Shown here: positions 15,418 through 38,341 of the stretch, piece after piece
How the letters are laid out: the number at the start of each line of letters is the position of its first letter
How positions within the stretch are numbered: position 1 is the first letter of the stretch
Source: Actinomycetota bacterium
Lineage (GTDB): Bacteria; Actinomycetota; Acidimicrobiia; IMCC26256; PALSA-610
Assembly: GCA_005779345.1 (NCBI GenBank)
Contig: SXJQ01000087.1
Span: forward strand, 1-38,341
Reading direction: 5' to 3'
DNA: 38,341 bases
Position numbers and translations under genes: made by a program
Notes under the pieces: model-generated
What the model saw: the letters and a program-made list of their open reading frames with translations, nothing else
What the model was told of the DNA's origin: nothing
Database searches by the model: none

Positions 15418-17010
15418 GTGACTGAGGGGGTGGCGCCGGGGCCTGGCGCGCGGGCGCGCGCATCGGCCGCGTCGTTTCCTCCGGCGGGCGGCGCCGTGGT
15501 TGTCGGCGCCGTGGTTGCCGTCGTCGGGGCCGGGATCCTCCTGCGGTTCGTCACCGCTTCGGACCTCTGGCTCGACGAGGCGCTGACCGTCAACATCTCG
15601 GGGCTGGCCTTCGGCGACATCCCCGACTGGCTCCGCCACGACGGCGCACCGCCGCTCTACTACTTCTTGTTGCATGCCTGGACCGCGGTGTTCGGCGACG
15701 GCGACACGTCGGCCCGCGCGCTCACCGGCGTGTTCGGCGTCGCTGCGCTCCCGCTCGCGTGGTCGTGTGGGCGCCGCATCGGTGGCCGGCCGTTGGCGGT
15801 GGCGGTGCTCGTCGTGACGGCGACGAGCCCGTACGCGATCCGCTACTCCACCGAGGCGCGCATGTACGGCCTCGAGATCTTCCTCGTGTTCGCCGGGATG
15901 CTCGCCGTCCGTCGGGCGTTCGACGACCCGTCGCCGGCGCGGCTCGCTCCGGTAGCGGTCGTGAGTTCGGCCCTCCTCTTCACGCAGTACTGGTGCCTGT
16001 CGCTGGTCGGTGTCACCGGGCTCACGCTGCTCCTCGTCGCGTGGCGCGGCCCCGACGACCTGCGGCGGGCGGCGCGCCGGATCTTCGTCGCGACGGCGAT
16101 CGGTGCGGCGACGTTCGCGGCATGGCTCCCGGTGTTGTTCGACCAGCGGGCGCATACCGGCACGCCGTGGGGTACGCCGCAGTTGCCGCCGGGCCCGATC
16201 GGCACGACGTTCATCGGTTTCGCCGGCGGCGACGACCATCCGGAGGGCTGGACGCTCTACCTCCTCTCGGTCCCACTGCTCGTGATCGGCGCGTTGGGCG
16301 TTGCCGCGTACGGGCGCTGGGAGGTGCGGCTGGATCTGCGGGCCCGTACACCCGTGCGCGCCGAGACGATCCTCGGTGGCGTGACCCTCGTCGTCGCCTG
16401 TTCGGTCGCGTACGTCGGCGAGAGCGCGTTCGAACCGCGGTACTCGGCGATCGTGTTCCCGATGTACGCCCTGATCATCGCGGGGGGCATCACGTTGCTC
16501 GCGGACGCGCGTGTGCGAGCGGCGGCGCTCGCGTTGGTCGCCGTGGTCGGCCTCGTCGGTGGAACGCGCAACGCGGTCGAGCAACGGACCCAGACGGGCG
16601 CGGTCGCCGCGATGATCGCGGCCGAGGCGACGCCCGGCGAGGTCGTCGTCTACTGCCCCGACCAACTCGGGCCGGCCACCCATCGCGTGCTGGCGCGGGA
16701 GCGCCCCGACCTCGTGGAGTTGCGGTACCCGGACCTCTCGACCGACGTCGGGTTCGTCGACTGGGTCGACTACGAGGCGCGACTCGCGGATCCTGATCGT
16801 TCGCCCGAACGGGTCGCGGCGCGGGTGATCGAACGGGCGGGAACCGGTCGGATCTGGGTCGTCAGCGCGGGTGGCTACCGCACGCACGACGCCTACTGCG
16901 GCCCGCTGATCACGGCACTCGCGGTCGCCGGGCGACAGGCGGTGCCCCGGATCGCGCCCGACGAGACGATCTTCGAACGCGCGGGGCTGTACGAGCTGCG
17001 GGTCGGATGA
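15418..17010 (+). CDS. GT-C fold membrane glycosyltransferase (PMT_2 / family 39-like)
   Basis: ORF 15301..17010. It is polytopic, with the first-loop acidic motif LWLDEALT followed by APPLYYFLLHAW. Start is GTG 15418 (7 nt after TAGCGT at 15405-15410) or GTG 15409. Confidence 0.75.
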   Translation: MTEGVAPGPGARARASAASFPPAGGAVVVGAVVAVVGAGILLRFVTASDLWLDEALTVNISGLAFGDIPDWLRHDGAPPLYYFLLHAWTAVFGDGDTSARALTGVFGVAALPLAWSCGRRIGGRPLAVAVLVVTATSPYAIRYSTEARMYGLEIFLVFAGMLAVRRAFDDPSPARLAPVAVVSSALLFTQYWCLSLVGVTGLTLLLVAWRGPDDLRRAARRIFVATAIGAATFAAWLPVLFDQRAHTGTPWGTPQLPPGPIGTTFIGFAGGDDHPEGWTLYLLSVPLLVIGALGVAAYGRWEVRLDLRARTPVRAETILGGVTLVVACSVAYVGESAFEPRYSAIVFPMYALIIAGGITLLADARVRAAALALVAVVGLVGGTRNAVEQRTQTGAVAAMIAAEATPGEVVVYCPDQLGPATHRVLARERPDLVELRYPDLSTDVGFVDWVDYEARLADPDRSPERVAARVIERAGTGRIWVVSAGGYRTHDAYCGPLITALAVAGRQAVPRIAPDETIFERAGLYELRVG

Positions 17011-18158
17011 CGGCGGCGACCGACGACCGCGCCCTCGACCGCGCGGGCGATCCGGGCAGCGCCGGCCGCGCGCTCGTGGTCGCGATCGGGCCGTGGATCC
17101 TGTCGCGCGCGCTCGTCGCCGCCGCACTGGCCACGGCCCGCCACGTGGCCGACACGGCGTTCGCGGGTCGCCCACCGACGATCGACCACGGCCTCTTGGC
17201 GTGGGACGCGGCGTGGTACGGCGACATCGCCAAGTTCGGATACGAGGGTGTCGACCCCGCGGGCCTGCGCTTCTTCCCGTTGCTGCCGCTCCTCGGTCGT
17301 GCCGTGGGTGCGATCGTTCCGGGAATCGACGCGGGGAAGGGCGTGGTCGTCGTCGCGAACCTCGCGGCGCTGTGGTTCCTCGTGAAGCTCCATCGCTTCG
17401 TCGTCCGCGAGTCGGGCGACGCCGACACCGCTCGCCGCGCGGTGTGGATCGGCGTGCTCGCACCGCCGGCGTTCGTGCTCGTGATGGGCTACGCCGAGTC
17501 GGTGCTCCTGCTCGCTGCCGTCGGCGCGATCGACGCCACCCGACGCGGCCGCCCGTGGCGGGCGCTGCCATGGGCGATCGTGGCCGGCCTCGCCCGGCCG
17601 ACGGGGATCCTCGTCGCGATCCCGTTGCTCGTCGAAGTGTTCGAGCGCTGGCGACCGGCCAGGCCGCGCGACCGGCTCGCGGGCCTCGCCGCCGCCGCGG
17701 GCGCGCCCATCGGCCAACTCGTGTTCCTCGTCTGGGCGCGTGAGCGGGCCGGCTCGTTGTTCGAACCGCTCCGCATCCACAACCGCACGACCTTGCGGGG
17801 CGGCGTCGTCAATCCGCTCGGCGCGATGTGGGATGCACTCAGCGACCTCCGGCTCGGCGACCGGTTCGGCTCGGGGCTGCATTTCTTCACGGCGATCGTC
17901 TTGCTGTCGCTGCTCGTCCACATCTGGCGTCGGGGGCCGCGATCGATGTTCTGGTACGCGCTCGCCTCATCGGTGATCGGCCTGTCGGCCGCGAACCTCG
18001 ACTCGATCGAGCGCTACGCGTTCGCAACGTTGCCGTTCATCGTCGCGGGCGCGACCCTCACCGAACGGCCGATGGTGGAGCGGTACGTACTCGTCTTGTC
18101 GGGCACTGGGCTCGTCGCCATGTCGATGCTCGCCTTCTTCGGAACTCTGGTGCCATGA
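17007..18158 (+). CDS. PIG-V-like (GT76-type) integral membrane mannosyltransferase family protein
   Basis: 383-aa polytopic ORF. The N-terminal loop motif WDAAWYGDIAKFGY matches the PIG-V/Mannosyl_trans2 family. ATGA overlap with the upstream stop at 17007-17010. Confidence 0.65.
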   Translation: MTAATDDRALDRAGDPGSAGRALVVAIGPWILSRALVAAALATARHVADTAFAGRPPTIDHGLLAWDAAWYGDIAKFGYEGVDPAGLRFFPLLPLLGRAVGAIVPGIDAGKGVVVVANLAALWFLVKLHRFVVRESGDADTARRAVWIGVLAPPAFVLVMGYAESVLLLAAVGAIDATRRGRPWRALPWAIVAGLARPTGILVAIPLLVEVFERWRPARPRDRLAGLAAAAGAPIGQLVFLVWARERAGSLFEPLRIHNRTTLRGGVVNPLGAMWDALSDLRLGDRFGSGLHFFTAIVLLSLLVHIWRRGPRSMFWYALASSVIGLSAANLDSIERYAFATLPFIVAGATLTERPMVERYVLVLSGTGLVAMSMLAFFGTLVP

Positions 18159-19639
18159 TCCGCGTCGTGAGCCCTCGGCGTTGGACTCGCTTCGGCCGGT
18201 TCCTGCTCGCGATCGCGCTCGTCGCGCTCGCCGTGCGGATCACGTACGTCGCGTGGGGCAAGGGCGGATCGTGTCCGACGGGTGTCGAAGACGTCGTCGC
18301 CCCGACCCAGTGCCCGTCGGTCGATCCCGACACGCCGAACGACAGCACCTATTACAACTCCGCGGCGAACCATCTCGCGCGCGGCGGCGGGCTCACCGAC
18401 CCGTTCCGCCCCGACGAGCCCGCGGCCGATCACCCGCCGCTGACGGTGTTCGCGCTCGCCCCGGTGTCGTGGCTCGGCGATCGCCTGCCCGACTCGTGGA
18501 TCGGCGACCCGACGAATCAGGTTCCGCAGCGTTATGCGATGGCGTTGTTCGGCACCGCGGTCGTGGTCGGGATCGGCTTCGCCGGGCGGCGTCTCGGTCG
18601 CTCCGGCGATCTCGGCGGCCCAGGCGATCGCGGTCGCGCGGACCGGGGCGACTCGGTCGGCCTCATCGCCGCGGGCGTGGCCGCGATCTATCCCGGCCTC
18701 TGGATCAGCGACGCGCTGATCTTCTCCGAGACGGTCACGAACCTCGCCGTCGTGCTCGCGATCCTCGCGGCATTGCGGGCGCGTGAGGCGCTCACGACCC
18801 GGCGGCTCGTGATCCTCGGCGTCGCGTGTGCACTCGCCGGCCTCGCCCGCGCCGAGTTGTTGCTCTTCGGCCCGCTCCTCGCGGCGATCATCGTGCCGTG
18901 GCGCGAGCCGAAGGTGTTGCGTCGAATCGGCGCGGTCGCAGTCGGTGCGATCGCGCTCGTCGGTCCGTGGGTCGTCTACAACAACCTCCGCTTCGAGGAG
19001 TTCACCTTCGTCTCGACGAACGACGGCCTCGCGATCGCGGCATCGAACTGCGAGCCTGTGTACCACGGCGCCAACATCGGGTTGACGAGCTACGACGCGG
19101 CGCCTGCCGACGCCGCGCCCGAGATCAAGGCCGATCCGATCTACTGCGTCGAGATCTGGGATCGTGACGACCTCGAAATGTGTCCGCAACGGGTCGCGCA
19201 GTGCGGCGACCAGTCGGAGGTGTCGAAGTATTTGCGGGATCGGACTCTGCGGTACATCGGCAACAACATGAAGTGGCAGCCCGTCGTCATGTCGGCGCGG
19301 GTCGGGCGAGTCTGGAACCTGTATCGACCGTTCGACATGGTCTGGTTCAACGAGGGCGAGGACCGCGAAGCCTGGGCGACGCGATCGGCCCTGTTCTCGT
19401 TCTATCCGGTGGCGTTGCTCGCGGTCGTCGGCGGGATCCGACTCCGGCGTGATCGCCGCACGCTGCTGGCGCTCCTCGTGCCGATCGCGGTCGTCACGAT
19501 CGGTGCCGCGGTCACCTACGGTCAGGCGCGCTACCGCGCGGCCGCGGAGCCGAGCCTCGTACTGCTGGCCGCGGTGGCCCTAGCGTGGATCGCCGGGCGT
19601 CGAGCCCGAGCCGGAGGGTCCGAGGAGGTGCAGGGGTGA
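18155..19639 (+). CDS. ArnT/PMT-like GT-C membrane glycosyltransferase
   Basis: ORF 17828..19639 trimmed to ATG 18155 (ATGA overlap 18155-18158). Motifs: DSTYYNSAANHLA ... ADHPPL. It is homologous along its length to the C-terminal halves of the two AT3 fusion proteins (LWISDALIFSE vs LWINDEMLMSE, ARVGRVWNLYRP vs ARIGRMWDVYRP). Confidence 0.75.
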   Translation: MIRVVSPRRWTRFGRFLLAIALVALAVRITYVAWGKGGSCPTGVEDVVAPTQCPSVDPDTPNDSTYYNSAANHLARGGGLTDPFRPDEPAADHPPLTVFALAPVSWLGDRLPDSWIGDPTNQVPQRYAMALFGTAVVVGIGFAGRRLGRSGDLGGPGDRGRADRGDSVGLIAAGVAAIYPGLWISDALIFSETVTNLAVVLAILAALRAREALTTRRLVILGVACALAGLARAELLLFGPLLAAIIVPWREPKVLRRIGAVAVGAIALVGPWVVYNNLRFEEFTFVSTNDGLAIAASNCEPVYHGANIGLTSYDAAPADAAPEIKADPIYCVEIWDRDDLEMCPQRVAQCGDQSEVSKYLRDRTLRYIGNNMKWQPVVMSARVGRVWNLYRPFDMVWFNEGEDREAWATRSALFSFYPVALLAVVGGIRLRRDRRTLLALLVPIAVVTIGAAVTYGQARYRAAAEPSLVLLAAVALAWIAGRRARAGGSEEVQG

Positions 19640-21195
19640 GCGAGCGCCAGCCGCGGATCGGGATCCTCGTGGTCGCGTACAACGCCGCCGCCACCCTCGC
19701 GCACGTCCTCGACCGCATCCCGCGCGACTTCGCACCGCGGATCAGCGAGGTCCTCGTCTTCGACGATCACAGCGACGACGCGACCTATCTCGTCGGACTC
19801 GGCTATCAGCAGGCCAACGCGCACCTGCCGCTCCGGGTGTTCCGGAACGACCGCAATCTCGGCTACGGCGGCAACCAGAAGGCCGGGTATCGGTGGGCGA
19901 TCGAGCACGACCTCGACATCATCGTGCTGTTGCACGGCGACGGCCAGTACGCGCCCGAGATGCTCCCCGAGATGGTCGCCCCGCTCGAGCGCGGCGAGGC
20001 CGACGCGGTCTTCGGGTCGCGGATGCTCACGAAGGGCGCGGCGCGTCGCGGCGGAATGCCGGTCTACAAGTACGTCGGCAACAAGATCCTGACCCGGGTG
20101 CAGAACGCGATCGGTGGCGCCGATCTCTCGGAGTGGCACAGCGGCTACCGCGCCTACTCGGTCGCCGCGCTCCGCAAGATCCCCTTCGAGCGCAATGTCG
20201 ACGTCTTCGACTTCGACTGCCAGATCATCATCCAACTGCTCGAGACGCAGCAGCGCATCGTCGAGATCCCGATTCCGACCTACTACGGCGACGAGATCTC
20301 CTACGTGAACGGGCTCGGCTACGCCCGCGACGTCGTGCGTGACGTCGTCGTCTACCGCGCGCACAAGATGGGCTTCGGGAGCGGAGCGACGGCCTTCGCC
20401 TCGCGCGAGTACGAGCTCAAGGAGGAGGCCGCGACCTCGCACCGCTCGATCGTCGCCGCGCTGTCGGTCGGCCCGCCGCGACGGGTGCTCGACCTCGGTT
20501 GCTCCGCCGGGCACCTCGCTGCCGAACTGCGCAAACTCGGCCACGAGGTGGTCGGGGTCGATGTCGAGGAACACGCCGAGGTCGCCGAACGCGTCGACCG
20601 ATTCGTGCGCGCGGATCTCGACGACGGGATCCCCGAGGCGGTCGGCGACGGATTCGACATCGTGCTCGCCGCCGACGTGCTCGAACACGTGCCGCACCCC
20701 GAACACATGCTGCGCGACGCCCGCCGCGTGCTCGCCCCGGGTGGCCGCATGCTCGTCTGCGTTCCCAACATCGGACACTGGTACCCGCGAGCGCGGGTCG
20801 CGGCCGGCCGGTTCGCGTACGAACGCCGCGGCATCCTCGACGCAGGGCACGTGCGGTTCTTCACGCGACGCAGCTTCGGGCAACTCGCGCGCGAGCAGGG
20901 GTTCGAGATCACACGCCGCTGGGCCGTCGGTGTGCCCATCGAGGTCACCGCACGCGCTGCCGGTGGTCGGGTGACCGGGCGCACGACCCCGACCGCGCGG
21001 CGTTCGGGCCCGAACGCGGTGTTGCGCGCTGCGGGGCGGGTCGACGCCGCGCTCGCCCGGGCGTGGCCGACGCTGTTCGGTTACCAGCTCCTGTTCGAGC
21101 TCACTCCGCGTCGGGACACTGCAAGACCGGCCCCGACGGAGACGGCGGTGGCACCCCACACGGACGCTGGAACACCCTCGCCAACCCGAAGCTGA
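19636..21195 (+). CDS. GT2 (polyprenol-phosphate sugar synthase-like) glycosyltransferase fused to class I SAM methyltransferase
   Basis: ORF 19585..21195 trimmed to GTG 19636 (GTGA overlap 19636-19639). The N-terminal half carries GILVVAYNAA, FDDHSDD and LLHGDGQY (GT-A DxD type). The C-terminal half carries VLDLGCSAGHLA (SAM motif I) and DIVLAADVLEHVP. Confidence 0.85.
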   Translation: MSERQPRIGILVVAYNAAATLAHVLDRIPRDFAPRISEVLVFDDHSDDATYLVGLGYQQANAHLPLRVFRNDRNLGYGGNQKAGYRWAIEHDLDIIVLLHGDGQYAPEMLPEMVAPLERGEADAVFGSRMLTKGAARRGGMPVYKYVGNKILTRVQNAIGGADLSEWHSGYRAYSVAALRKIPFERNVDVFDFDCQIIIQLLETQQRIVEIPIPTYYGDEISYVNGLGYARDVVRDVVVYRAHKMGFGSGATAFASREYELKEEAATSHRSIVAALSVGPPRRVLDLGCSAGHLAAELRKLGHEVVGVDVEEHAEVAERVDRFVRADLDDGIPEAVGDGFDIVLAADVLEHVPHPEHMLRDARRVLAPGGRMLVCVPNIGHWYPRARVAAGRFAYERRGILDAGHVRFFTRRSFGQLAREQGFEITRRWAVGVPIEVTARAAGGRVTGRTTPTARRSGPNAVLRAAGRVDAALARAWPTLFGYQLLFELTPRRDTARPAPTETAVAPHTDAGTPSPTRS

Positions 21196-25088: not shown

Positions 25089-25585
25089 AGCGTCACGCGC
25101 GGCTTGTCGTCGAAGCCGGGCGTATCGGAGTTGCTCGTCGCGACCACGAGGTAGCCGTCGACGCGTGCACGCAGCTTCGGGTACCGCTCGTCGTCGAGCC
25201 CGGAGCGGTCGATCGCGTAGCCGCGCTCGGCCCACATGGCGGCGATCGCTTCGATCGCGGCGTCGGGGTCGAGCCCGGTCCCGGCGAGTTCGACGATCGC
25301 GGGAACCTGCGCCTGGCGCGTCCCCGATTCGCCGACCGCGAAGCCGAGGAACTTGTCGCGGCACGTCTCGCGGTCGGTGTCGGCGATGGTCACCGGCTCG
25401 AAGTCGGCCGCGGGTGGCAGGACGGCGCCGGCCTCGTTGAGCAGGGCCACCACGCGTGCCTGACCGGCCGCGAAGTCGTCGCTCCCGGTGCCGGGTTCGG
25501 AACAGCCGGCGAGCGCGACGACCGCGAGCGCCAGACTGCCGACAACTCGGGTGCGGGTGGCCGCACGGCTCAGAGCGCGTCGCAT
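25058..25585 (-). CDS. lipoprotein
   Basis: ORF 25058..27574 trimmed to ATG 25585. The N-terminus MRRALSRAATRTRVVGSLALAVVALAGCSEPG has a basic n-region, a hydrophobic core and the lipobox LAGC. It overlaps the convergent fusion gene by 31 nt. Confidence 0.7.
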   Translation of the reverse strand: MRRALSRAATRTRVVGSLALAVVALAGCSEPGTGSDDFAAGQARVVALLNEAGAVLPPAADFEPVTIADTDRETCRDKFLGFAVGESGTRQAQVPAIVELAGTGLDPDAAIEAIAAMWAERGYAIDRSGLDDERYPKLRARVDGYLVVATSNSDTPGFDDKPRVTLYAVSECLAG

Positions 25586-32116: not shown

Positions 32117-32117
32117 C

Positions 32118-33605
32118 TCAGTACCAGTAGAGGCCGATGCGGAGGGCCGCGAACGCGGCGAGCGCCGACACCGTCGCGATCGCCAGGCCGGTCGTCGCGG
32201 ATCGTGTCGACGGGACACTTCCGACATCGGTGCTCCGGTGTGTCGACGCAAGCGCTGCGAGCCCGACGACGGGGAAGAGGTAGCGGCCCTGGAACTCGTC
32301 GATGCGCGGGGCTCCCACAGCGTTCCACCCCGTGTAGGCGAGCAGGAACACCGCGCCGGTGGTTGCGACGACCACACCCCACGTCACGAACGCATCGGAG
32401 CGAGCGACACCGCCGGGCGATCGTGCACGGCGTCGTCGATCGGGCGCGACGACGAGCACCAACGCGGCCCCGACGAGCAGCACGACCGCGACCGCGCCGG
32501 CCGACGCGAACGGTCGCCACGGCAGTTGCGCGACGGCATCGCGCGGGATCTCGACCCCGTCGCGCGCGACCGTCCGACCCATCGCGGCCACGAAATCGAG
32601 CGGGTGCGCGCGCACGAATCGGAGCGGGGCGTCGGGGTCGACGTCGTGGTAGGCGTACCCGTCGTTGGTGACGGCGGTCGGGTCGTACGGGTTCTCGAGC
32701 GGCACGTAGATCGACTGGGCGTAGCCGCTCCACGCCGCGAAGAGGATCGCGGCGGGCACGAGCACGGCCGCGAGCGCGACTCCGCCCGCCGCGCGACGGC
32801 GCAGGACCACGGGGACGAACATGACGAGCAGCAGCACGTAGGGCGGCTTCGCGAGGCCCAGCGCGGCTGCGACGATCGCGATCTCGATCAACAGGTGCCG
32901 ATCGAGGGGAGTCTCGGGGTCGGCTGCGTGCCGCGCGAGCACCACCGCGAGCAACGCGAGCGCGATCGTGAGCGAGTCGGCGGTGATCATCGCCGACTGC
33001 GCGACCGCGACCGGGGCGAGGCCGAGCACCGCGACCACCCACGCCGCGCTCCCGGCCCGGCGGACTGCGCGCCGCACCACGAGCACGTACGCGATCAGAG
33101 CACCGAGGCGAGCGAGGAGGAGCGCAGCGAAGGTCGAGAGGCCGACGATGCGTGCGAGCCCGACCCCGATGGCCGAGCCCGCATAGGGAATCGGTGAGTA
33201 CACCGCGCCGGTCGAGATCCCGAGGTTGCAGGCCGGACCGCCCGGGGCAGGGTCGTCGATCGTCCGCCAGGCGTCGGCGGCGCCCCCAGGTCCGAGGCCC
33301 GTGCGGCTCGCGTCGAGCAGGCCGCGCGCGTAGATCTCGCGCGTGTCGTCGAGCAGGTCGGCGGGGAAGGTCCCGACCACCGTCGGGCCGCGATCGGTGC
33401 CGCCGCCGCACAGTTCGACCGACCCCGTGCGCTCGTTGATCCAGTCGCCGCCCGACACCTGCCAGGCGCGAAGGACGTGCACCGGCTCGTCGGCGCCGCC
33501 GAGTTGGGGGACGGCGATCGCGAAACCGAGGCCCAGCAACGTCGCGAGCAGTGTGAACGTACCGACCGGCGATGTTGACCATGTCACGACGCGACCCGCG
33601 GGCAC
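32118..33605 (-). CDS. DUF2142-like polytopic membrane protein (putative GT-C type glycosyltransferase)
   Basis: ORF 32118..33638. The N-terminal loop motif GADEPVHVLRAWQVSGG (DE..H..RA.Q.S.G) is the pattern I associate with DUF2142. Start is GTG 33605, 8 nt after TAGTTT (plus strand 33614-19), or GTG 33638 as the longest option. Confidence 0.65.
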   Translation of the reverse strand: MPAGRVVTWSTSPVGTFTLLATLLGLGFAIAVPQLGGADEPVHVLRAWQVSGGDWINERTGSVELCGGGTDRGPTVVGTFPADLLDDTREIYARGLLDASRTGLGPGGAADAWRTIDDPAPGGPACNLGISTGAVYSPIPYAGSAIGVGLARIVGLSTFAALLLARLGALIAYVLVVRRAVRRAGSAAWVVAVLGLAPVAVAQSAMITADSLTIALALLAVVLARHAADPETPLDRHLLIEIAIVAAALGLAKPPYVLLLVMFVPVVLRRRAAGGVALAAVLVPAAILFAAWSGYAQSIYVPLENPYDPTAVTNDGYAYHDVDPDAPLRFVRAHPLDFVAAMGRTVARDGVEIPRDAVAQLPWRPFASAGAVAVVLLVGAALVLVVAPDRRRRARSPGGVARSDAFVTWGVVVATTGAVFLLAYTGWNAVGAPRIDEFQGRYLFPVVGLAALASTHRSTDVGSVPSTRSATTGLAIATVSALAAFAALRIGLYWY

Positions 33606-33613
33606 GGTGGCGA

Positions 33614-33623
33614 AAACTAGTGT
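33614..33623. promoter_or_regulatory. two overlapping divergent -10-like boxes around an ACTAGT palindrome
   Basis: This is the only AT-rich patch in the region (gaaaactagtgt). TAGTGT (33618-33623) lies 7 nt before GTG 33631 on the plus strand. TAGTTT (complement of 33614-33619) lies 8 nt before GTG 33605 on the minus strand. Both GTGs are in frame with the flanking ORFs. Confidence 0.45.
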
Positions 33624-33630
33624 CCGCCCG

Positions 33631-35175
33631 GTGAGCACCGTGGCCGTCGACGATGCGGCCGAGCCGGGCCGCGGGGCACTCGCGGCGCCCGGTAGCCCCG
33701 GTTCCTCGGGGCCGTCGCCTCGTGAACGGCTCGCGGTGCGCGTGGTGACCGGTGCGTTCCTGGTCGCGCTCTTCGCGTACGCGGGCGTGATCGTGTTCGG
33801 CGCGTCGCCGCTGCGCGGCAGCCCTGCCTGGCCCGACTACGTGCCGGGCCACGTCATGTTCGGCACGGATTCGGCCGGCTACTATCGGGCCTCGCATCAC
33901 GTGTGGTGGGAGCGGGGCTTCTTCGGTGCGCCGATGATCTACCCGCTGCTGCTCCAGGTGCTCGTTCGCAATCTCGTCGCCGTCGTACTCGTGCAGACCG
34001 CGCTGTACGGCGCCGCGTGGATCTGGCTCGCGCGGGTGTCGGCGCGGTTCGCGGCACGGCCGACGATGCGCATCCTGATCGCCGCGATCCTCTTCGCGCT
34101 CGCGCTCTCGCCGGAACTGTTGTTGTGGACGGCGTCGATCTCGACCGAGACGTTGTCGATCGCGCATGCCGTGGCGTTCCTCGCCGCGCTCGTGTCGGTG
34201 GCCGAGCAACCGACGCTCCGGCGCTGGACGGTGCTCGTCGGGCTCGTGGTGCTCGGCGCGCTGTTGCGCGACTCGAACACGGCGATCGCGCTGCTCGTGC
34301 TGCCCGCCGGTGTCGTCGCCGCGGTGCGGTTCCCCGCGTGGCGCCGCTTCGCGCTCGCCTCCGCCGTGGTCTGCACCGTCGTCGCGTTGGGCGTGTCGTC
34401 GCTCGCGAACATCGGGTCGGTGCCCTACGCGGGCGACGACTGCGACGTTCCGCCCACGAGCGACGACTGCCCGCCGCGGTGGCTGTATCCGTTGATGGAC
34501 ACGATCGTGATCCGGGTCGTGCGCGACGAGGGGTCGTACGACTGGTTCGTTGCCCGGGGCATGCCCGACGCCGCGGTGGTGAAGAAGTACACCGACGTCT
34601 ACGAACTCGACATCGGCGAGTTCAAGGAGCCGCAGTTCGACGAGTTCCGCGAGTGGATCTACTCCGAGGGGCGCACGAGCTACCTGTGGTTCCTCGTGAC
34701 GCATCCCCGTTACACGTTGTGGCGACCGGTCCTCGCCGACGAACAGATCTTCCTCCCGGGATCCGACTCGAATCTCGCGCCCGAGACCCGGCGTTCCTAC
34801 GGTGCCTACACGGGGTCGACCCCCGGCGCGATCTACGGCTGGTTCGGGGCGGCCGCGTTCTGGCGTTGGCTCGGATTGGTCGAGGTGTGGGCGCTCCTCG
34901 TGGTCCTGGCGCTGAGCGGCCTTCCCGCGACGCCGCTGCGTCGCGACGGCCGGCTGCGGCTCGCGCTCGGCGTCGGCTTCGCGGTCGGCCTGCTCCATGC
35001 GGTGGCGAACTACCACGGCGACGCCGCCGAGGTCGGGCGGCATGCGATCGCACCGAACGCTCAGCTCCGGGCGATCCTGTGGGTCACGACGTTGCTGGCG
35101 ATCGATCGGTGGTGGTCGAGGCGCCGATCTCGGCAGGTGCCGGAGGGTGACCTCGTAGCCGATCGATCAGGCTGA
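33631..35175 (+). CDS. polytopic membrane protein of unknown function with a soluble central loop
   Basis: ORF 33343..35175 trimmed to GTG 33631, 7 nt after TAGTGT (33618-33623). It has several hydrophobic segments and a Cys-containing hydrophilic segment (DDCDVPPTSDDCPPRW). I recognised no family motif. Confidence 0.55.
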   Translation: MSTVAVDDAAEPGRGALAAPGSPGSSGPSPRERLAVRVVTGAFLVALFAYAGVIVFGASPLRGSPAWPDYVPGHVMFGTDSAGYYRASHHVWWERGFFGAPMIYPLLLQVLVRNLVAVVLVQTALYGAAWIWLARVSARFAARPTMRILIAAILFALALSPELLLWTASISTETLSIAHAVAFLAALVSVAEQPTLRRWTVLVGLVVLGALLRDSNTAIALLVLPAGVVAAVRFPAWRRFALASAVVCTVVALGVSSLANIGSVPYAGDDCDVPPTSDDCPPRWLYPLMDTIVIRVVRDEGSYDWFVARGMPDAAVVKKYTDVYELDIGEFKEPQFDEFREWIYSEGRTSYLWFLVTHPRYTLWRPVLADEQIFLPGSDSNLAPETRRSYGAYTGSTPGAIYGWFGAAAFWRWLGLVEVWALLVVLALSGLPATPLRRDGRLRLALGVGFAVGLLHAVANYHGDAAEVGRHAIAPNAQLRAILWVTTLLAIDRWWSRRRSRQVPEGDLVADRSG

Positions 35176-37654
35176 TCACCGCACCGGCCGCGAGCACCGT
35201 GATCAGCGCGTCGACGGGTGCTCGGTATCGCGTGATGCCGAATGTGGTCGCGGCGGTGATCGTGATGGCGGCCGCGACCGCGAGGAACGGCAGGATCGGG
35301 ACCTTGCGACGCCGGAGCAAGAACAGCCCCACGATCGCGAACGGCAACATCGCGAAGTACTGCACGGTCGCGAGGTACGACTGCCAGTCGCCGCGCCCCT
35401 CGAGCGCGGCGTTGAACGGATGGATGTTCTGGCGGACGAACCAGAGGTCCCACATGCGCGCGACTCGGAGCGCGGCCATGCGCGGTTGCTGGCCCGGGTG
35501 GTCGCCGATGTAGTCGAGACCCCGCGCTCGCCACTCGATTTCCTTCTCGGACTCGTCGCCCGCTTGGAGCGGGCCGAAGCCTTCGGCGCAACCGACGCTC
35601 CAGTAGCCGAGGTAGGTGTCGCCCGCGCCGCCGTTGCCGTAGGTGATGTCGCAGTTCGCCACCATCAGCACGCTGCCGATGCCGTTCGACATGAGCACGG
35701 GGTGCTCGAACCGGGTGAGGTTGAACGCGAACCAGGGGGCGAGGACCAGGCCGCCGACCACGCAGGCGACCGCCGCGAATCGGACCCGCTCGCGGACCGG
35801 ATGGCTTCGCAACAAGAGCGCGAGCGGCACGACGAGGAGCGGGAACAGGGCCATTGCCTCGGCTCGGCTCAACGCGGCCATCGCAACGCCCGCGCCCATC
35901 CCCACCGCGGTCGCGAACCGCGGGTCGCGCCAGAAGCGGTAGGTCGCGAGCAGGGCCACGGCCGTCCACAGTTGGTACATGCCCTCCGACATCAACATCT
36001 CGTCGTTGATCCAGAGGTGCGCGTACGCACCTGCGAACGCGGCGGCGAGCCAACCGGCGCGCTCGTCGTCGAAGATCCGACGCGCGAGCAGGCCGAGCAG
36101 GAACACCGCGCCGGCACCGAGCAGTGTCGACGCGATGCGGTGCGTGAGTTCGCTCCGACCGATGAACTTGGAGACACCAGCGAGGTAGAGGAGGTAGTTC
36201 GGCGGGTGGCCCGCGCTCGGCGTGATGCGCCCGAAGATGTGGTACTTGCCGGGGTCGACGAACCAGAGACCATCGGCGATGTCGTTCGCTTGGGTGTGGT
36301 AGTAGTACGCGTCGCCGTTCAGCGGTACGCGGCCCCGGCTGATCACCACGTAGAAGAGTCGCCAGGCGAAGGCCGCGACCGTGATCAGGGTGAGGCCCAC
36401 GAAGAACGGTGGCCGAAAGCCGCGGCGGCTGATCGCGATCGACGGTCGTTCGAGCAGCCACCAGCTCGCCGCGCCGAGCAGCGTCGCGCCGATCGCGCTG
36501 AGCACGAAGATCTTCACGAACGTGAGGCTCTCGCCGCCGGTGAACCAATGCTGCGACAGCCAGTCGACGAACGCGTAGTGCCAGAGGTAGAAGCCGTACG
36601 ACACGAGCCCGATGAACGCGAGTGGCCGCCAGGCGAGCAGGCGCCGGATCGCTCCGCCGTCGGACGCGGTTGCGCTGGTGTCGAGCACACTCGGCCGGAT
36701 CACCGCGGGGATCACGAACAAGACCGCGATGAGCCCACCAGCGAACCGTTCGGCGACCTGTTGACGGGCCGTGATCGAGAACGGCGCGAGCGGGTCGATG
36801 CCGATCCCTTGGACGAACACGAAGAACGTGAGCGCGCCGCCGAGCCAGGGGATCCAGGGCCGTCGCGCGACGAACGCGTAGAGCGGATGCACGACGGTAC
36901 GGCGACGCGCGCCGACGTCGATCGCCGCGAGGAGCATCCCGAATCCGAACTGGCCGAGGTAGTGGGGGAGCACCCGGAGCGGCACCGCGAGCGCGTGATG
37001 GCGGCCGTACCAGACGAACAGCGGCCCGATCACGACGAGCGCGAGCGCGCCGACGATCTCGACGCGCAAGCGCGTGGTCGCGCGGACCCGAGCACCCCCG
37101 AGCGCGCGCGTCAGGAGCCGCAGCGCCCAGGCCCAGAGCGGGACGAACAGGTAGAAGCTGATCTCGACGACGAGTGTCCAGGCGTGACGCAGTCCGTAGT
37201 TGGCATTCGCATCGAGCGAGGGCACGTAGCCCTGGAACAGCAGGTAGTTGCGGATCCCGACGTCGGCGCTCGGGAGGCTCTTCGCCGCGGAGAACGCCAC
37301 GATGAGCGACAGCGCGACCCAGTAGGCCGGGTAGATGCGCCAGAACCGTTTGGAGAAGAAGCGCAACGCGTCGGGCGGTCGGGCGGCGCCGACGTGCGCG
37401 GCGACGAACGGCCGGTACACGAGGAACGCGGAGACGACGAAGAACACGGCCACGCCCATGTTGAGCTGCTGGACGGCGAGCCCGAGCGGGAACGTGAAGA
37501 TCCCGACGACGTCGATCTCGCTGCGGACCGCGCCGCTCGCGTCGCCGACGTGGGTCACGAGCACGGCCAGGGCGGCGAGGGCGCGCAGTCCGTCGAGCGC
37601 GCCGAGGCGGTCGGAGGGCGCCGCGGCCGGATCGTTCGGAGCGGTCGCCGTCAC
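35084..37654 (-). CDS. fusion protein: N-terminal AT3 acyltransferase + C-terminal ArnT/PMT-like GT-C glycosyltransferase (paralog of 22638..25088)
   Basis: ORF 35084..37897. AT3 motifs: LDGLRALAALAVLVTH, FFVVSAFLVYRPF, RFWRIYPAYW, LVSYGFYLWHY. GT-C part: LNGDAYYYH, SAGHPPNYLLY, LWINDEMLMSE, RFEHPVLMSNG, FGITRYRAPVD. Start is GTG 37654 (8 nt after TAGATT, plus strand 37663-68) or ATG 37699. Confidence 0.8.
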   Translation of the reverse strand: MTATAPNDPAAAPSDRLGALDGLRALAALAVLVTHVGDASGAVRSEIDVVGIFTFPLGLAVQQLNMGVAVFFVVSAFLVYRPFVAAHVGAARPPDALRFFSKRFWRIYPAYWVALSLIVAFSAAKSLPSADVGIRNYLLFQGYVPSLDANANYGLRHAWTLVVEISFYLFVPLWAWALRLLTRALGGARVRATTRLRVEIVGALALVVIGPLFVWYGRHHALAVPLRVLPHYLGQFGFGMLLAAIDVGARRRTVVHPLYAFVARRPWIPWLGGALTFFVFVQGIGIDPLAPFSITARQQVAERFAGGLIAVLFVIPAVIRPSVLDTSATASDGGAIRRLLAWRPLAFIGLVSYGFYLWHYAFVDWLSQHWFTGGESLTFVKIFVLSAIGATLLGAASWWLLERPSIAISRRGFRPPFFVGLTLITVAAFAWRLFYVVISRGRVPLNGDAYYYHTQANDIADGLWFVDPGKYHIFGRITPSAGHPPNYLLYLAGVSKFIGRSELTHRIASTLLGAGAVFLLGLLARRIFDDERAGWLAAAFAGAYAHLWINDEMLMSEGMYQLWTAVALLATYRFWRDPRFATAVGMGAGVAMAALSRAEAMALFPLLVVPLALLLRSHPVRERVRFAAVACVVGGLVLAPWFAFNLTRFEHPVLMSNGIGSVLMVANCDITYGNGGAGDTYLGYWSVGCAEGFGPLQAGDESEKEIEWRARGLDYIGDHPGQQPRMAALRVARMWDLWFVRQNIHPFNAALEGRGDWQSYLATVQYFAMLPFAIVGLFLLRRRKVPILPFLAVAAAITITAATTFGITRYRAPVDALITVLAAGAVISLIDRLRGHPPAPAEIGASTTTDRSPATS

Positions 37655-37662
37655 GACGGAGC

Positions 37663-37690: not shown

Positions 37691-37697
37691 TGACCTC

Positions 37698-38341
37698 ATG
37701 GCGGCGCCGACGACGAGGTCCGACACGCTCGTCGTGATCCCCGCGTACAACGAGGAGGCGGCGCTGCCCGCGACACTCGCCGAACTCCACGGCGTGCGCC
37801 CCGACCTCGACGTCCTCGTCGTCTCCGACGGTTCCCGCGACGCGACGGCGGCCGTCGCCCGGACGGCGAGCGTCGCGGTGGTGGAGTTGCCGTTCAACCT
37901 CGGGATCGGCGGCGCGCTCCAAACCGGATTCCGCTACGCGGTGCGCCACGGCTACCGGCGTGCGGTGCAGTTCGATGCCGACGGCCAACACGACCCGAAC
38001 GCGATCGGCGCCCTGCTCGACTCGCTCGACGCCGGCGCGGATCTGGTGATCGGCACCCGCTTCGGCGAGGGTGGCACGGTCGAGTATCGGGTCGGGCCGT
38101 TGCGACGCTCGGCGATGCACGTGCTGCGCCTCTCCATCAACGCGCTCACCCACCAGCGCTTCTCCGACACGTCGTCGGGGTTCCGCGCGTTCAGCGCCCC
38201 GATGCTCGACCAGTTCGCGGCGACCTACCCCGTCGAGTTCATGGACTCGACCGAGGCGTTGCTCCAGGCGTGCAACGCCGGTTTCACGGTGGTCGAGGTG
38301 CCCGTCGCCATCCGCGAGCGCCAGGCGGGCGTGCCGAGCAC
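37698..38341 (+). CDS. GT2 family glycosyltransferase (DPM1/GtrB-like polyprenol-phosphate sugar synthase type), 3' end outside the window
   Basis: This ORF is not in the ORF track because it runs off the window. My translation from ATG 37698 is MAAPTTRSDTLVVIPAYNEEAALPATL..LVVSDGSRD..VQFDADGQHDP..SGFRAF, which has the classic GT-A/GT2 N-terminal motifs. A TACCCT box lies at 37685-37690, 7 nt upstream. Confidence 0.8.
   Translation, partial: MAAPTTRSDTLVVIPAYNEEAALPATLAELHGVRPDLDVLVVSDGSRDATAAVARTASVAVVELPFNLGIGGALQTGFRYAVRHGYRRAVQFDADGQHDPNAIGALLDSLDAGADLVIGTRFGEGGTVEYRVGPLRRSAMHVLRLSINALTHQRFSDTSSGFRAFSAPMLDQFAATYPVEFMDSTEALLQACNAGFTVVEVPVAIRERQAGVPS

What the first reader, a model, noticed from the sequence alone, without database searches (positions are those of the whole stretch)
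15418..38341. 23-kb locus of GT-C glycosyltransferases, GT2 lipid-sugar synthases and six AT3 acyltransferase domains: candidate undescribed envelope-glycan assembly and multi-acylation system
Fourteen of fifteen consecutive genes appear to encode membrane proteins. There are at least five GT-C type modules: PMT_2-like at 15418-17010, PIG-V-like at 17007-18158, ArnT-like at 18155-19639, and the C-terminal halves of the two fusion genes. A DUF2142-like protein and two unclassified polytopic proteins add to these. There are two GT2 genes of the polyprenol-phosphate-sugar synthase type, one fused to a SAM methyltransferase, and a UGM/amine-oxidase-like flavoprotein. Six Acyl_transf_3 domains are present, each keeping the motif set G(L/F)(E/D)GLR..H, FF..S(A/G)FL, R..R(I/V).PAYW and SYG.(Y/F)LWH. 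GT-C enzymes use lipid-phosphate sugars on the outer face of the membrane. AT3 proteins move acyl groups across the membrane onto extracytoplasmic glycans (O-antigen acetylases of the OafA/Oac type; mycobacterial polysaccharide succinylation). The window shows no Wzx/Wzy, ABC exporter, priming phosphoglycosyltransferase or nucleotide-sugar synthesis genes. The gene content therefore points to elaboration of a surface glycan or glycoconjugate outside the membrane, using lipid-linked donors and up to six different O-acylation activities, plus methylation. I do not recognise this gene set as the LM/LAM, arabinogalactan, teichoic acid or Gtr-type modification clusters.
Basis: partly seen in the sequence, partly recalled or inferred. 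Interest (0 to 1): 0.85.

Follow-up and report, generated by a model that had tools for sequence, protein, structure and literature searches.

The report
Acylating envelope-glycan assembly locus, Acidimicrobiia
A 23-kb gene block from an uncultured Acidimicrobiia bacterium encodes about eight membrane glycosyltransferases, six membrane acyltransferase domains (some fused to the glycosyltransferases), two lipid-sugar synthases and a galactofuranose-mutase-like enzyme, which together look like an undescribed machine for building and acylating a surface sugar polymer outside the cell membrane.

Summary
Window 15418-38341 carries 15 tightly packed genes. Six Acyl_transf_3 (AT3) domains pass Pfam's threshold and keep all shared motifs. 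GT-C modules number seven, plus one probable: PMT_2-like x4, PIG-V-like, DUF2142, and g05, which has no Pfam family but a confident model with a GT-C fold. There are also two GT2 genes, one fused to a SAM methyltransferase. A flavoprotein's only strong matches among solved structures are UDP-galactopyranose mutases, and it keeps their active-site residues.

The block is conserved, with rearrangements, in at least 12 uncultured Acidimicrobiia or Actinomycetota genomes. A simpler core (mutase-like + GT2 + GT-C + AT3) sits at the same chromosomal position in a more distant relative. Fusions recur: AT3-GT-C, AT3-AT3, GT-C-GT-C and AT3-GT-C-DUF2142. In relatives, the GT2 at the window's edge is followed by a GacJ/Rv3632-type DUF2304 partner.

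Best reading: polyprenyl-phosphate sugars, probably including a furanose, are made inside and used outside by the GT-C enzymes to build a glycan that AT3 domains acylate during synthesis.

No curated family names these proteins, and two AT3 reviews do not list AT3-GT-C fusions. The product, sugars and acyl groups are unknown. I rate it a new variant of a known kind, of moderately high interest.

The parts
15418..17010 (+). g01: GT-C glycosyltransferase, PMT_2/ArnT-like (start uncertain, 15409-15496)
   Evidence: PMT_2 scores 24.4 bits, just under the gathering score of 26.1. The weak NCBIfam hits are the MT1671 mannosyltransferase and Agl23. The motifs DLWLDEA and GAPPLYY are invariant in four orthologues. 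Orthologues are 49-53% identical in L002, L003, L004 and L015, and 47% in L024.
17007..18158 (+). g02: PIG-V-like (Mannosyl_trans2) polytopic GT-C
   Evidence: Pfam PF04188 scores 25.3 bits against a gathering score of 22.4. About 8-10 hydrophobic segments are predicted. It is present only in some related loci (L018, L022) and is missing from L002-L004.
18155..19639 (+). g03: stand-alone GT-C, paralogue of the GT-C halves of g06 and g14
   Evidence: BLASTP to g06_GTC gives 3e-44 at 33% identity. PMT_2 scores 20 bits, below cut-off. The D63 and DHPPL motifs are invariant in orthologues.
19636..21195 (+). g04: GT2 (AglJ/DPM1-like) fused to a SAM methyltransferase; no transmembrane segment
   Evidence: Glycos_transf_2 scores 69 bits and Methyltransf_23 scores 86 bits. 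The best NCBIfam hits are AglJ (70 bits) and PpgS (37 bits), both far below cut-off. Orthologues are 66-71% identical. It has HGDGQY where g15 has DADGQH.
21101..22582 (-). g05: polytopic protein with a GT-C fold and no Pfam family
   Evidence: No Pfam, NCBIfam or PDB-sequence hit was found. The AF2 model has pLDDT 88.9 and pTM 0.91. The Foldseek top hits are GT-C enzymes only (AftA, Pmt4, STT3/PglB, EmbB/EmbC, AftB, DPY19), mostly with probability 0.97-1.0 and TM-score mostly 0.33-0.49. The family has about 100 clusters, all called hypothetical. The few that carry a taxon name are Acidimicrobiia, Acidimicrobiales or Thermoleophilaceae.
22638..25088 (+). g06: AT3 - GT-C (PMT_2) fusion, 816 aa
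   Evidence: Acyl_transf_3 scores 89 bits and PMT_2 scores 36 bits. The AF2 model (pLDDT 79.7) shows about 10 helices, then a GT-C module. Foldseek hits are GT-C enzymes only. AT3 residues H25, FF..S, R84..R87 and E148, and GT-C residue D415, are invariant in the family.
25058..25585 (-). g07: small lipoprotein-like protein (LAGC lipobox), function unknown
   Evidence: Sequence. No family hit. It is conserved next to g08 at 39-56% identity over most of its length in L002, L003, L005, L009 and L022, and as fragments in L018.
25685..27238 (+). g08: UDP-galactopyranose-mutase-like flavoprotein (NF005548/PRK07208 family)
   Evidence: NCBIfam NF005548 scores 735 bits and is named only 'hypothetical protein'. 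The PDB sequence search returns 14 distinct UGM sequences at E 4e-23 to 3e-18; the next best is protoporphyrinogen oxidase at 4e-8, N-terminus only. The full-length alignment to T. cruzi UGM keeps the GGH loop, YN.KVW, both Args, W/Y, GYP and RY..NQDHS. It is the best-conserved gene of the locus at 73-77% identity.
27241..28485 (+). g09: stand-alone AT3 acyltransferase
   Evidence: Acyl_transf_3 scores 62 bits. Motifs are kept. The weak best NCBIfam hit is SucT at 19.6 bits against a cut-off of 1275.
28482..30917 (+). g10: tandem AT3-AT3 in one 811-aa reading frame
   Evidence: Acyl_transf_3 scores 141 bits in two stretches. There is no stop at the junction. The two halves are 36% identical. 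The same architecture occurs elsewhere (P0053, two AT3 stretches). In most related loci the two are separate genes.
30914..32116 (+). g11: stand-alone AT3 acyltransferase
   Evidence: Acyl_transf_3 scores 55 bits. It is 43% identical to the first half of g10.
32118..33638 (-). g12: DUF2142 polytopic protein (I treat DUF2142 as GT-C from background knowledge, not tested here)
   Evidence: PF09913 scores 112 bits. D50-E51..H54 is invariant in orthologues. It is fused to the g14 orthologue in L007 and L008.
33640..35175 (+). g13: polytopic protein, probable GT-C (inconclusive)
   Evidence: DUF2142 scores 15 bits at E 0.009. WsfD scores 19 bits at E 4e-4. hhalign to the g03 family gives 53% probability. 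There is no PDB-sequence hit. Orthologues are 31-36% identical in related loci.
35084..37654 (-). g14: second AT3 - GT-C (PMT_2) fusion, 856 aa
   Evidence: Acyl_transf_3 scores 70 bits and PMT_2 scores 36 bits. Its GT-C half is 51% identical to that of g06. Orthologues are 52-55% identical.
37698..38341 (+). g15: GT2 of the polyprenyl-phosphate-sugar synthase type (3' end cut by the window)
   Evidence: Glycos_transf_2 scores 82 bits. It carries the DADGQHDP motif. A full-length orthologue's best NCBIfam hit is PpgS at 104 bits against a cut-off of 370. An orthologue (L006) is followed by a DUF2304 gene, the GacJ/Rv3632 family, at 87 bits (bioRxiv 10.1101/180810); small ORFs of the same size and position follow g15 in L010 and L014.

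Best explanation
The locus encodes a membrane-embedded assembly line that builds and acylates an envelope glycan or glycolipid on the outer face of the cytoplasmic membrane.

Steps shown here, at the level of family or fold:
- g08 is a UGM-type flavoenzyme.
- g15 and the N-terminal half of g04 are DPM1/GtrB/PpgS-like GT2 enzymes. In relatives, g15 has a GacJ-type partner gene.
- Seven proteins or modules are GT-C or GT-C-family (g01, g02, g03, g05, g06 C-terminal half, g12, g14 C-terminal half), and g13 probably is too.
- Six AT3 domains keep the residues of active AT3 acyltransferases.

Inferred mechanism:
1. g08 converts a UDP-pyranose, most likely UDP-Galp, into the furanose form.
2. The GT2 enzymes load sugars onto polyprenyl phosphate at the inner face of the membrane. 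The methyltransferase fused to g04 may methylate its lipid-linked sugar, because SAM is available only in the cytoplasm.
3. The lipid-linked monosaccharides are flipped by an unidentified component.
4. The set of GT-C enzymes polymerises and branches the glycan outside. This resembles the way the many Emb and Aft enzymes build mycobacterial arabinan from a single lipid donor.
5. The AT3 domains pass acyl groups from cytoplasmic acyl-CoA through the membrane onto the growing glycan.

AT3 fuses physically and repeatedly with this GT-C subfamily and with DUF2142. This argues that acylation is coupled to glycosyl transfer within one complex. In that picture the GT-C module takes the acceptor-presenting role that the SGNH domain has in OafA/OatA-type enzymes.
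For: - Family assignments.
- UGM likeness: all 14 strong PDB sequence hits are UGMs. The residues aligned to H62, R176, W315, Y317, R327, Y395, Y429 and N433 of T. cruzi UGM are all kept (the residue roles come from my knowledge of the UGM literature).
- g15 type: DADGQHDP motif, PpgS as best curated model, and a DUF2304/GacJ-family gene directly downstream in an orthologous locus.
- GT-C fold of g05. GT-C fold of the g06 C-terminal half.
- Predicted topology of g06: about 10 helices, then a helix at 381-405, then the loop carrying invariant D415. This fits a cytoplasmic AT3 C-terminus and an extracytoplasmic GT-C catalytic loop.
- AT3 motifs are conserved in all six domains.
- Conserved gene block in at least 12 related loci.
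- Minimal core (g08 + GT2 + GT-C + AT3) in more distant Acidimicrobiia, one at the same ADH/luciferase-like neighbourhood.
- Fusions verified by Pfam: AT3-PMT_2-DUF2142 in L007 and L008, AT3-AT3 in P0053, PMT_2-PMT_2 in P0342.
- Genes are packed with -4 to +2 nt junctions within strands and 43-99 nt between divergent genes.
Against: - No product, sugar, acyl donor or acceptor is known, and every organism that carries the locus is uncultured.
- No flippase (GtrA, Wzx), LCP ligase or priming enzyme was found in the window, so both the start and the anchoring of the glycan are unexplained.
- g08 does not hit Pfam's GLF model. Its family (NF005548) is very large (the search hit its 8000-candidate limit at E<1e-20) and has never been named a mutase, so the substrate could be another sugar nucleotide.
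- g04 lacks the DAD.QH motif of lipid-sugar synthases. It could instead be a conventional glycosyltransferase.
- The GT-C status of g13 is inconclusive.
- GT-C and AT3 folds do not by themselves tell whether the acceptor is a polysaccharide, a glycolipid or a protein.
Confidence: 0.6

Rival explanations
1. The locus is a decoration system rather than an assembly system. Like Gtr, GacIJKL or CsdAB-type modules, each GT2/GT-C pair only adds single side-chain sugars, and each AT3 only adds O-acyl groups. The polymer being decorated (wall polysaccharide, lipoglycan or teichoic-acid-like) would be made by genes elsewhere. The many paralogues would reflect diversification driven by phage or environment.
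For: - The window has no priming enzyme, polymerase of the Wzy type, exporter or ligase.
- GT2 + DUF2304 + GT-C is exactly the composition of known decoration modules (for the lactococcal systems).
- AT3 O-acetylases such as OafA and Oac are classic decoration enzymes.
- Copy number varies between relatives, from 1 AT3 and 1-2 GT-C in L024 and L026 to 6 AT3 and 8 GT-C here. Such variation is typical of variable surface decoration.
Against: - Eight GT-C modules but only two GT2 donor synthases is a ratio seen in polymer-building systems (mycobacterial arabinan and mannan; background knowledge), not in one-sugar decoration modules.
- The block is conserved in order across several species-level genomes.
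- Lactococcal PSP shows that GT-C enzymes can themselves polymerise and ligate, so the missing Wzy does not force this reading.
Confidence: 0.25
2. The locus is a protein O-glycosylation system. The PMT_2-type GT-C enzymes would glycosylate secreted or membrane proteins from polyprenyl-phosphate sugars, as Pmt/Ppm1 do in Streptomyces and mycobacteria. The AT3 domains would acylate the protein-linked glycans, as PglI does in Neisseria.
For: - There are PMT_2 and weak PMT Pfam hits.
- Pmt1/2/4 are among the best structural matches of the g06 and g05 models.
- AT3 acylation of a protein-linked glycan has a precedent in PglI.
Against: - Scores to PMT_2 are low, and ArnT, STT3, Emb and Aft enzymes match comparably well.
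- No Pfam hit to the MIR domain of true PMTs was returned.
- NCBIfam gives no Pmt assignment.
- Eight GT-C modules and a furanose mutase are not features of known Pmt systems (background knowledge).
Confidence: 0.07
3. The locus is only a paralogue-rich patch without a common pathway: unrelated membrane enzymes that lie together by chance or through an assembly artefact.
For: All sequences come from metagenome assemblies, and the function of no single gene has been tested.
Against: - The same genes recur together in at least 12 independent MAG contigs from different studies.
- Pairs of them are fused into single ORFs in several genomes.
- The core recurs in distant relatives at the same chromosomal position.
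- Coding signal (GC3 85-90%) is continuous, and gene junctions overlap by 4 nt.
Confidence: 0.02

Closest known systems
GacI/GacJ/GacK/GacL of Streptococcus pyogenes, the mycobacterial PpgS/Rv3632/Rv3779 system, and Gtr and lactococcal Csd/Wps systems
   Same: - A DPM1-like GT2 makes a polyprenyl-monophosphate sugar, helped by a small DUF2304 protein that lies next to the g15 orthologue.
- A GT-C enzyme then transfers the sugar outside the membrane.
   Different: - This locus has eight GT-C modules instead of one.
- No GtrA or Wzx flippase is recognised.
- It adds a UGM-like enzyme and six AT3 domains, some covalently fused to GT-C.
- No protein reaches the curated cut-off of PpgS or any other named model.
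Mycobacterial arabinan and lipoarabinomannan assembly (EmbA/B/C, AftA-D using decaprenyl-phospho-arabinofuranose; SucT succinylation)
   Same: - Many paralogous GT-C enzymes build a furanose-rich polymer outside the membrane from a lipid-monophosphate donor.
- An AT3 protein (SucT) acylates the product.
- AftA, AftB and Emb are among the best structural matches of g05.
   Different: - No Pfam hit to Arabinose_trans, AftA or GT87, and no DprE1/E2 or UbiA genes.
- The furanose would come from a UGM-type mutase acting on a nucleotide sugar, not from PRPP.
- The AT3 domains here lack an SGNH domain and are fused to GT-C.
- The SucT model matches only g09, at 19.6 bits against a cut-off of 1275.
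AT3 O-acyltransferases of surface glycans (OafA, OafB, OatA, Oac, WecH, TmaT)
   Same: - Same Pfam family, with about 10 helices.
- Conserved TM1 His, FF..S, R..R, the E of W(S/T)L..E, and SYG..LWH.
   Different: - The fusion partners listed in the two AT3 papers consulted are SGNH, a racemase domain (alanine/serine) and NRF.
- Here the partners are GT-C (PMT_2), GT-C + DUF2142, or a second AT3.
- Six paralogous domains sit in one locus.
Eukaryote-type UDP-galactopyranose mutases (T. cruzi, A. fumigatus)
   Same: - g08 aligns over its full length (E 4e-23).
- The flavin-side His loop, both catalytic Args, and the Tyr/Asn residues that hold the diphosphate are conserved.
   Different: - Overall sequence similarity to the solved UGMs is low (84.9 bits over the full length), and Pfam's GLF model is not hit.
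- g08 belongs to the very large bacterial family NF005548/PRK07208, annotated only as an oxidoreductase.
- Activity and substrate are untested.

Membership tests
Acyl_transf_3 (PF01757) membrane acyltransferases | Pfam model above the gathering score | tested here: met
   All six domains score 55-141 bits against a cut-off of 31.
Acyl_transf_3 (PF01757) membrane acyltransferases | Conserved functional residues: TM1 His, FF..S(G/A), R..R, and the Glu of W(S/T)L..E | tested here: met
   These residues are invariant in the alignment of the six domains and in the g06 family. Their functional roles come from the OafB/OatA literature and my own knowledge.
Acyl_transf_3 (PF01757) membrane acyltransferases | Transfer of an acyl group from acyl-CoA to an extracytoplasmic carbohydrate | not testable with these tools
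   This needs biochemistry or mutant glycan analysis.
GT-C fold glycosyltransferases | Match to a Pfam model of a GT-C family above threshold | tested here: met
   Met for g02 (PIG-V), g06 C-terminal half and g14 C-terminal half (PMT_2), and g12 (DUF2142). Below threshold for g01, g03 and g13. No hit for g05.
GT-C fold glycosyltransferases | Polytopic GT-C architecture in three dimensions | tested here: met
   Confident models of g05 (pLDDT 88.9) and g06 (79.7) retrieve GT-C enzymes at high probability.
GT-C fold glycosyltransferases | Acidic residue in the first extracytoplasmic loop | tested here: met
   The conserved residues are: D-E in g01 (DLWLDEA), D50-E51 in g12, D415 in the g06 family, D63 in g03, D77 in g13 and E65 in g05. 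Placement in the loop is inferred from the predicted helices.
GT-C fold glycosyltransferases | Membership of g13 | tested here: inconclusive
   DUF2142 at E 0.009. WsfD at E 4e-4. hhalign gives 53% to the g03 family and 5% to the g12 family. No PDB-sequence hit.
Polyprenyl-phosphate sugar synthases (DPM1/GtrB/GacI/PpgS-type GT2) | GT2 domain with the DAD.QH..P signature | tested here: met
   g15 has DADGQHDP and 82 bits to Glycos_transf_2. g04 has HGDGQY instead, so the feature is not met for g04.
Polyprenyl-phosphate sugar synthases (DPM1/GtrB/GacI/PpgS-type GT2) | Adjacent DUF2304 (GacJ/Rv3632) partner gene | tested here: met
   The partner lies beyond the window's end. It is present directly downstream of the g15 orthologue in L006 (87 bits), and small ORFs of the same size and position follow g15 in L010 and L014.
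Polyprenyl-phosphate sugar synthases (DPM1/GtrB/GacI/PpgS-type GT2) | Curated equivalog score (PpgS, ArnC, AglJ) | tested here: not met
   The best hit is PpgS at 104 bits against 370. g04 scores 70 bits to AglJ against 325. Neither protein is an orthologue of a named enzyme.
UDP-galactopyranose mutase | Sequence similarity to solved UGMs over the full length | tested here: met
   E 4e-23 over residues 14-474 against 4dsg. The 14 best hits are all UGMs.
UDP-galactopyranose mutase | Active-site His loop, two Args, Trp/Tyr, and the Tyr-Tyr-Asn that bind the diphosphate | tested here: met
   All are kept in the alignment. Residue numbering and roles come from my knowledge of the T. cruzi and A. 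fumigatus UGM structures.
UDP-galactopyranose mutase | Pfam GLF (PF03275) model or curated NCBIfam UGM model | tested here: not met
   Neither appears. The curated family that g08 does meet is NF005548, named 'hypothetical protein' (735 bits).
UDP-galactopyranose mutase | Mutase activity | not testable with these tools
   An enzyme assay is needed.
Mycobacterial LM/LAM/arabinogalactan GT-C set | Emb/Aft (Arabinose_trans, AftA) or GT87 families, DPA synthesis genes | tested here: not met
   No such Pfam or NCBIfam hits for any protein. The similarity to AftA and Emb is only fold-level.

The most novel reading that the evidence does not exclude
The locus makes a polyprenyl-phosphate galactofuranose (or other furanose) donor and uses it outside the membrane to polymerise a furanan. 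This would be a galactofuranose counterpart of DPA-dependent arabinan synthesis. My literature searches found no description of such a route; the Galf polymers in the papers I consulted are built in the cytoplasm from UDP-Galf, or in the Golgi in fungi.

In addition, the fused AT3-GT-C and AT3-GT-C-DUF2142 proteins would be single-polypeptide machines that glycosylate and acylate in one step. The GT-C module would replace the SGNH domain as the acceptor-presenting partner of AT3.
Probability: 0.3. Interest if true: 0.8.

Novelty: new variant of a known kind. Interest (0 to 1): 0.62.

Why it matters
- The envelope polymers of Acidimicrobiia, a widespread soil, freshwater and marine actinobacterial class with few cultured members, are essentially uncharted. 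I found no paper describing them.
- The locus gives a concrete, conserved gene set to test.
- For the AT3 field, a natural covalent fusion of AT3 to a GT-C glycosyltransferase bears on an open question raised in the reviews: how AT3 proteins without an SGNH domain find their acceptor, and when acylation happens. The fusion predicts that acylation is coupled to glycosyl transfer.
- For glycobiology, a UGM-like enzyme always sits next to a lipid-sugar synthase and GT-C enzymes. This points to a lipid-linked furanose donor other than DPA.
- It also suggests a function for NF005548/PRK07208, a very large unnamed flavoprotein family.
- g05 defines a GT-C family with no Pfam model.

Tried and rejected
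- The first attempt to scan genomes with a 25-sequence alignment failed for lack of a conserved stretch. It was redone with 11 sequences.
- Sequence-profile searches of the g05 and g13 families against PDB sequences and Pfam gave nothing.
- hhalign between the shallow family profiles was uninformative for g05 and weak for g13. Only structure prediction settled g05.
- Foldseek with the whole g06 model returned only GT-C matches with weak E-values. No AT3-like entry was among the 50 matches listed, so the AT3 half could not be confirmed by fold.
- From the two-stretch hits, I first read some proteins as GT-C-AT3 fusions in the reverse order. Pfam showed that the two I checked are a GT-C-GT-C tandem (P0342) and an AT3-AT3 tandem (P0053), so that claim was dropped.
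- Literature searches for a lipid-linked galactofuranose donor, PRK07208 and Acyl_transf_3 + PMT_2 found nothing relevant. The Salmonella T1 antigen paper concerns cytoplasmic UDP-Galf-dependent synthesis and is not related.
- Rfam found no RNA element in the window.
- I considered and rejected LM/LAM, arabinogalactan, teichoic-acid and MGLP-type clusters, because the family hits are lacking.

Full report
**Source and gene map**

The window has about 70% G+C, so raw ORF lists are full of shadow frames. Two sources define the genes. One is a third-position GC frame plot. The other is the set of gene calls on an ENA metagenome contig that carries the identical flavoprotein and the same gene order (L001). 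Together they give 15 genes between 15418 and the window end.

Homologue tables show that the window is itself a whole 38,341-bp NCBI metagenome contig. Its nearest relatives are Acidimicrobiia or Actinomycetota MAGs.

The first 15.4 kb encodes unrelated metabolism: an EAL protein, acyl-CoA dehydrogenases, hydantoinase A/B, an AMP-ligase, a PilZ protein, an amidohydrolase, an alcohol dehydrogenase and a luciferase-like oxidoreductase.

**Check of the observation**

Pfam confirms six Acyl_transf_3 domains, all above the gathering score. They lie in g06 (N-terminal half), g09, g10 (two domains in one 811-aa frame), g11 and g14 (N-terminal half). They are old paralogues, 31-43% identical.

The GT-C assignments hold as well:
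- PMT_2 is above threshold in the C-terminal halves of g06 and g14.
- g03 is their paralogue (3e-44).
- g01 is just below the PMT_2 threshold but has the DLWLDEA and GAPPLYY motifs.
- g02 passes the PIG-V model.
- g12 is a strong DUF2142 hit.

g04 is GT2 plus a SAM methyltransferase. g15 is a GT2 cut off by the window end.

A hydropathy scan gives 11 polytopic proteins and one lipoprotein-like protein (g07), and g04, g08 and g15 appear soluble or peripheral.

**What the tools add: the flavoprotein**

g08 is not a generic amine oxidase. Against all PDB sequences, its 14 best hits are UDP-galactopyranose mutases (E 4e-23 to 3e-18), and the T. cruzi enzyme aligns over its full length. The next hit, protoporphyrinogen oxidase, is at 4e-8 and covers only the dinucleotide-binding N-terminus.

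The alignment keeps the GGH histidine loop, YN.KVW, both catalytic arginines, the W.Y pair, GYP and RY..NQDHS. The residue roles come from my knowledge of the UGM structures.

NCBIfam places g08 at 735 bits in NF005548 (PRK07208), a family named only 'hypothetical protein'. The family is very large (the search hit its 8000-candidate limit at E<1e-20) and is annotated only as an oxidoreductase. g08 is the best-conserved gene of the locus, at 73-77% identity to its orthologues.

**What the tools add: g05 and g13**

g05 has no Pfam, NCBIfam or PDB-sequence match. Its family has about 100 clusters of hypothetical proteins; the few that carry a taxon name are Acidimicrobiia, Acidimicrobiales or Thermoleophilaceae. 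A confident AlphaFold model (pLDDT 88.9, pTM 0.91) retrieves only GT-C enzymes among its top matches: AftA, Pmt4, STT3/PglB, EmbB/EmbC, AftB and DPY19. g05 is therefore a GT-C fold family without a sequence model.

g13 is probably GT-C as well, on weak evidence: WsfD, DUF2142 and hhalign to the g03 family.

The g06 model (pLDDT 79.7) shows about ten helices. These are followed by a helix at 381-405 and then the loop with the invariant D415. Its structural matches are all GT-C.

**What the tools add: the GT2 at the window edge**

g15 carries DADGQHDP. A full-length orthologue's best curated model is PpgS, the mycobacterial polyprenyl-phospho-GalNAc synthase, though far below cut-off. In L006 the g15 orthologue is followed by a small DUF2304 membrane protein, and ORFs of the same size and position follow it in L010 and L014. 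DUF2304 is the family of GacJ and Rv3632, which bind and stimulate GacI and PpgS (bioRxiv 10.1101/180810). That partner gene would lie just beyond the window's right end.

**Conservation**

A scan of one genome per species found 22 loci. tblastn with the window's proteins gave the following picture:
- The left half (g01-g03-g04-g05-g06-g07-g08, then three or four AT3 genes, then g13) is found wholly or in part in L002, L003, L004, L005 and L015.
- The right half (g15-g14-g12-g13, the AT3 genes, g08) is found wholly or in part in L006, L007, L009, L013 and L014.
- Compact versions occur in L018 and L022.
- g12 and g13 have swapped positions relative to the window.
- g02 is often absent.

More distant orthologues of g08 (68-73% identical) sit in simpler loci. 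L026 has g08, GT2, an unknown 551-aa protein, AT3 and PMT_2. L024 has a g01-like gene, g08, GT2, unknown genes, PMT_2, AT3 and an epimerase. L024 lies in the same amidohydrolase-ADH-luciferase-like neighbourhood as the window.

The core is therefore UGM-like + GT2 + GT-C + AT3. The window's lineage has expanded it by duplication.

**Fusions**

AT3-GT-C proteins form a family of their own. Dozens of clusters carry both PF01757 and PF13231. About 15 of the best 150 representatives at 50% identity cover the query from end to end. Pfam on selected proteins verified four architectures:
- AT3-PMT_2-DUF2142, in L007 and L008 (1357 and 1362 aa).
- AT3-AT3, in P0053, as in g10.
- PMT_2-PMT_2, in P0342.
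- AT3-PMT_2 with an extra C-terminal region, in P0351.

In L026 the stand-alone GT-C and AT3 genes overlap by 4 nt. Repeated fusion in several combinations is the strongest evidence that these enzymes act together.

Neither the 2022 review of AT3 proteins nor the 2025 TmAT superfamily paper mentions a GT-C partner. Between them they list SGNH, racemase and NRF fusions.

**Mechanism (inference)**

1. g08 makes a UDP-furanose, most simply UDP-Galf.
2. g15 (with its GacJ-like partner) and possibly g04 load sugars onto polyprenyl phosphate. The methyltransferase of g04 could only act on the cytoplasmic side.
3. After flipping by an unidentified component, seven or eight GT-C enzymes build the glycan outside the membrane.
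4. The AT3 domains deliver acyl groups from acyl-CoA during synthesis.

The predicted topology of g06 fits this scheme: ten AT3 helices, and then the first GT-C helix leads to the catalytic loop.

The ratio of many GT-C enzymes to few donor synthases resembles mycobacterial arabinan assembly. The GT2/DUF2304/GT-C logic resembles the GacIJKL, PpgS/Rv3779 and lactococcal Wps systems, in which GT-C enzymes also polymerise and ligate.

**What is not explained**

- No flippase, primer, ligase or anchor was found.
- The sugars and acyl groups are unknown.
- g07, a conserved lipoprotein-like protein, has no assigned role.
- g04 lacks the lipid-sugar synthase motif.

The main rival reading is that the locus only decorates a polymer made elsewhere. 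The current data cannot exclude it.

**Comparison with known systems and novelty**

The locus works like known extracytoplasmic glycosylation and AT3 acylation systems. It is not an orthologue of any of them:
- No functional (equivalog) NCBIfam cut-off is met; the only cut-offs reached are g08's, on unnamed 'hypothetical protein' models.
- No Emb, Aft, GT87 or teichoic-acid family is hit.
- No paper was found that describes the gene set, PRK07208, or a lipid-linked Galf donor.

I rate it a new variant of a known kind, for four reasons: novel domain fusions, a new GT-C sequence family, a candidate new route to furanose polymers, and a functional lead for a very large unnamed flavoprotein family. 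All carriers are uncultured, which limits how quickly it can be tested.

Noticed in passing
window 28482-30917 (junction near 29700-29740): g10 reads through from one AT3 domain into the next with no stop codon, and an in-frame GTG sits at the junction. In most related loci the two are separate genes 35-100 nt apart. The same AT3-AT3 architecture exists elsewhere (P0053). A lost stop or an assembly error in this one contig cannot be excluded, because the ENA contig carrying the identical flavoprotein may derive from the same data.
   Followed up: partly
L007:818-4888 (+) and L008:9926-14011 (+): In two related MAGs the orthologues of g14 and g12 form one ORF of 1357 or 1362 aa. Its domain order is AT3 - PMT_2 - DUF2142, a three-module membrane enzyme.
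   Followed up: yes
window 25058-25585 (-): g07 is a 175-aa protein with a lipoprotein signal (LALAVVALAGC) and no family match. It is conserved immediately upstream of and divergent from the mutase-like gene in several related loci.
   Followed up: partly
window 21101-21195 and 35084-35175: Convergent gene pairs overlap at their 3' ends by 95 nt (g04/g05) and 92 nt (g13/g14), and g06/g07 overlap by 31 nt. Same-strand neighbours overlap by 4 nt. The long convergent overlaps may reflect mis-set stops or starts, or real antisense coupling.
   Followed up: no
window 30-1124 (+) and 10588-10932 (+): A GGDEF-remnant/EAL protein and a 114-aa stand-alone PilZ protein (both c-di-GMP signalling) lie upstream of the glycan locus. 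PilZ proteins often control polysaccharide synthesis. This one is separated from g01 by about 4.5 kb of metabolic genes, and I found no evidence of a link.
   Followed up: no
window 12837-15389, L002:2715-5271 and L024:5796-8253: The alcohol dehydrogenase, small ORF and luciferase-like oxidoreductase to the left of the locus are syntenic in L002 and in the distant L024. The glycan locus therefore occupies a fixed chromosomal site while its content expands and contracts.
   Followed up: partly
window 15000-38000 (composition): AT skew swings from about -0.3 where membrane proteins are coded on the + strand to about +0.2 where they are coded on the - strand. My reading, from background knowledge, is T-rich second codon positions in hydrophobic proteins, not a replication signal.
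   Followed up: no
L006:2434-7069: Beyond the g15/DUF2304 end of the locus, one relative carries a GT4 glycosyltransferase, a methyltransferase, a second GT2, a GNAT-like protein and a polysaccharide deacetylase with DUF3473. These genes could extend the pathway, but they lie outside the window.
   Followed up: partly
L024:14027-16102 (-): In the simple version of the locus, a 691-aa protein with a spermine/spermidine-synthase-like domain sits among the GT-C and AT3 genes. Its role is unknown.
   Followed up: no
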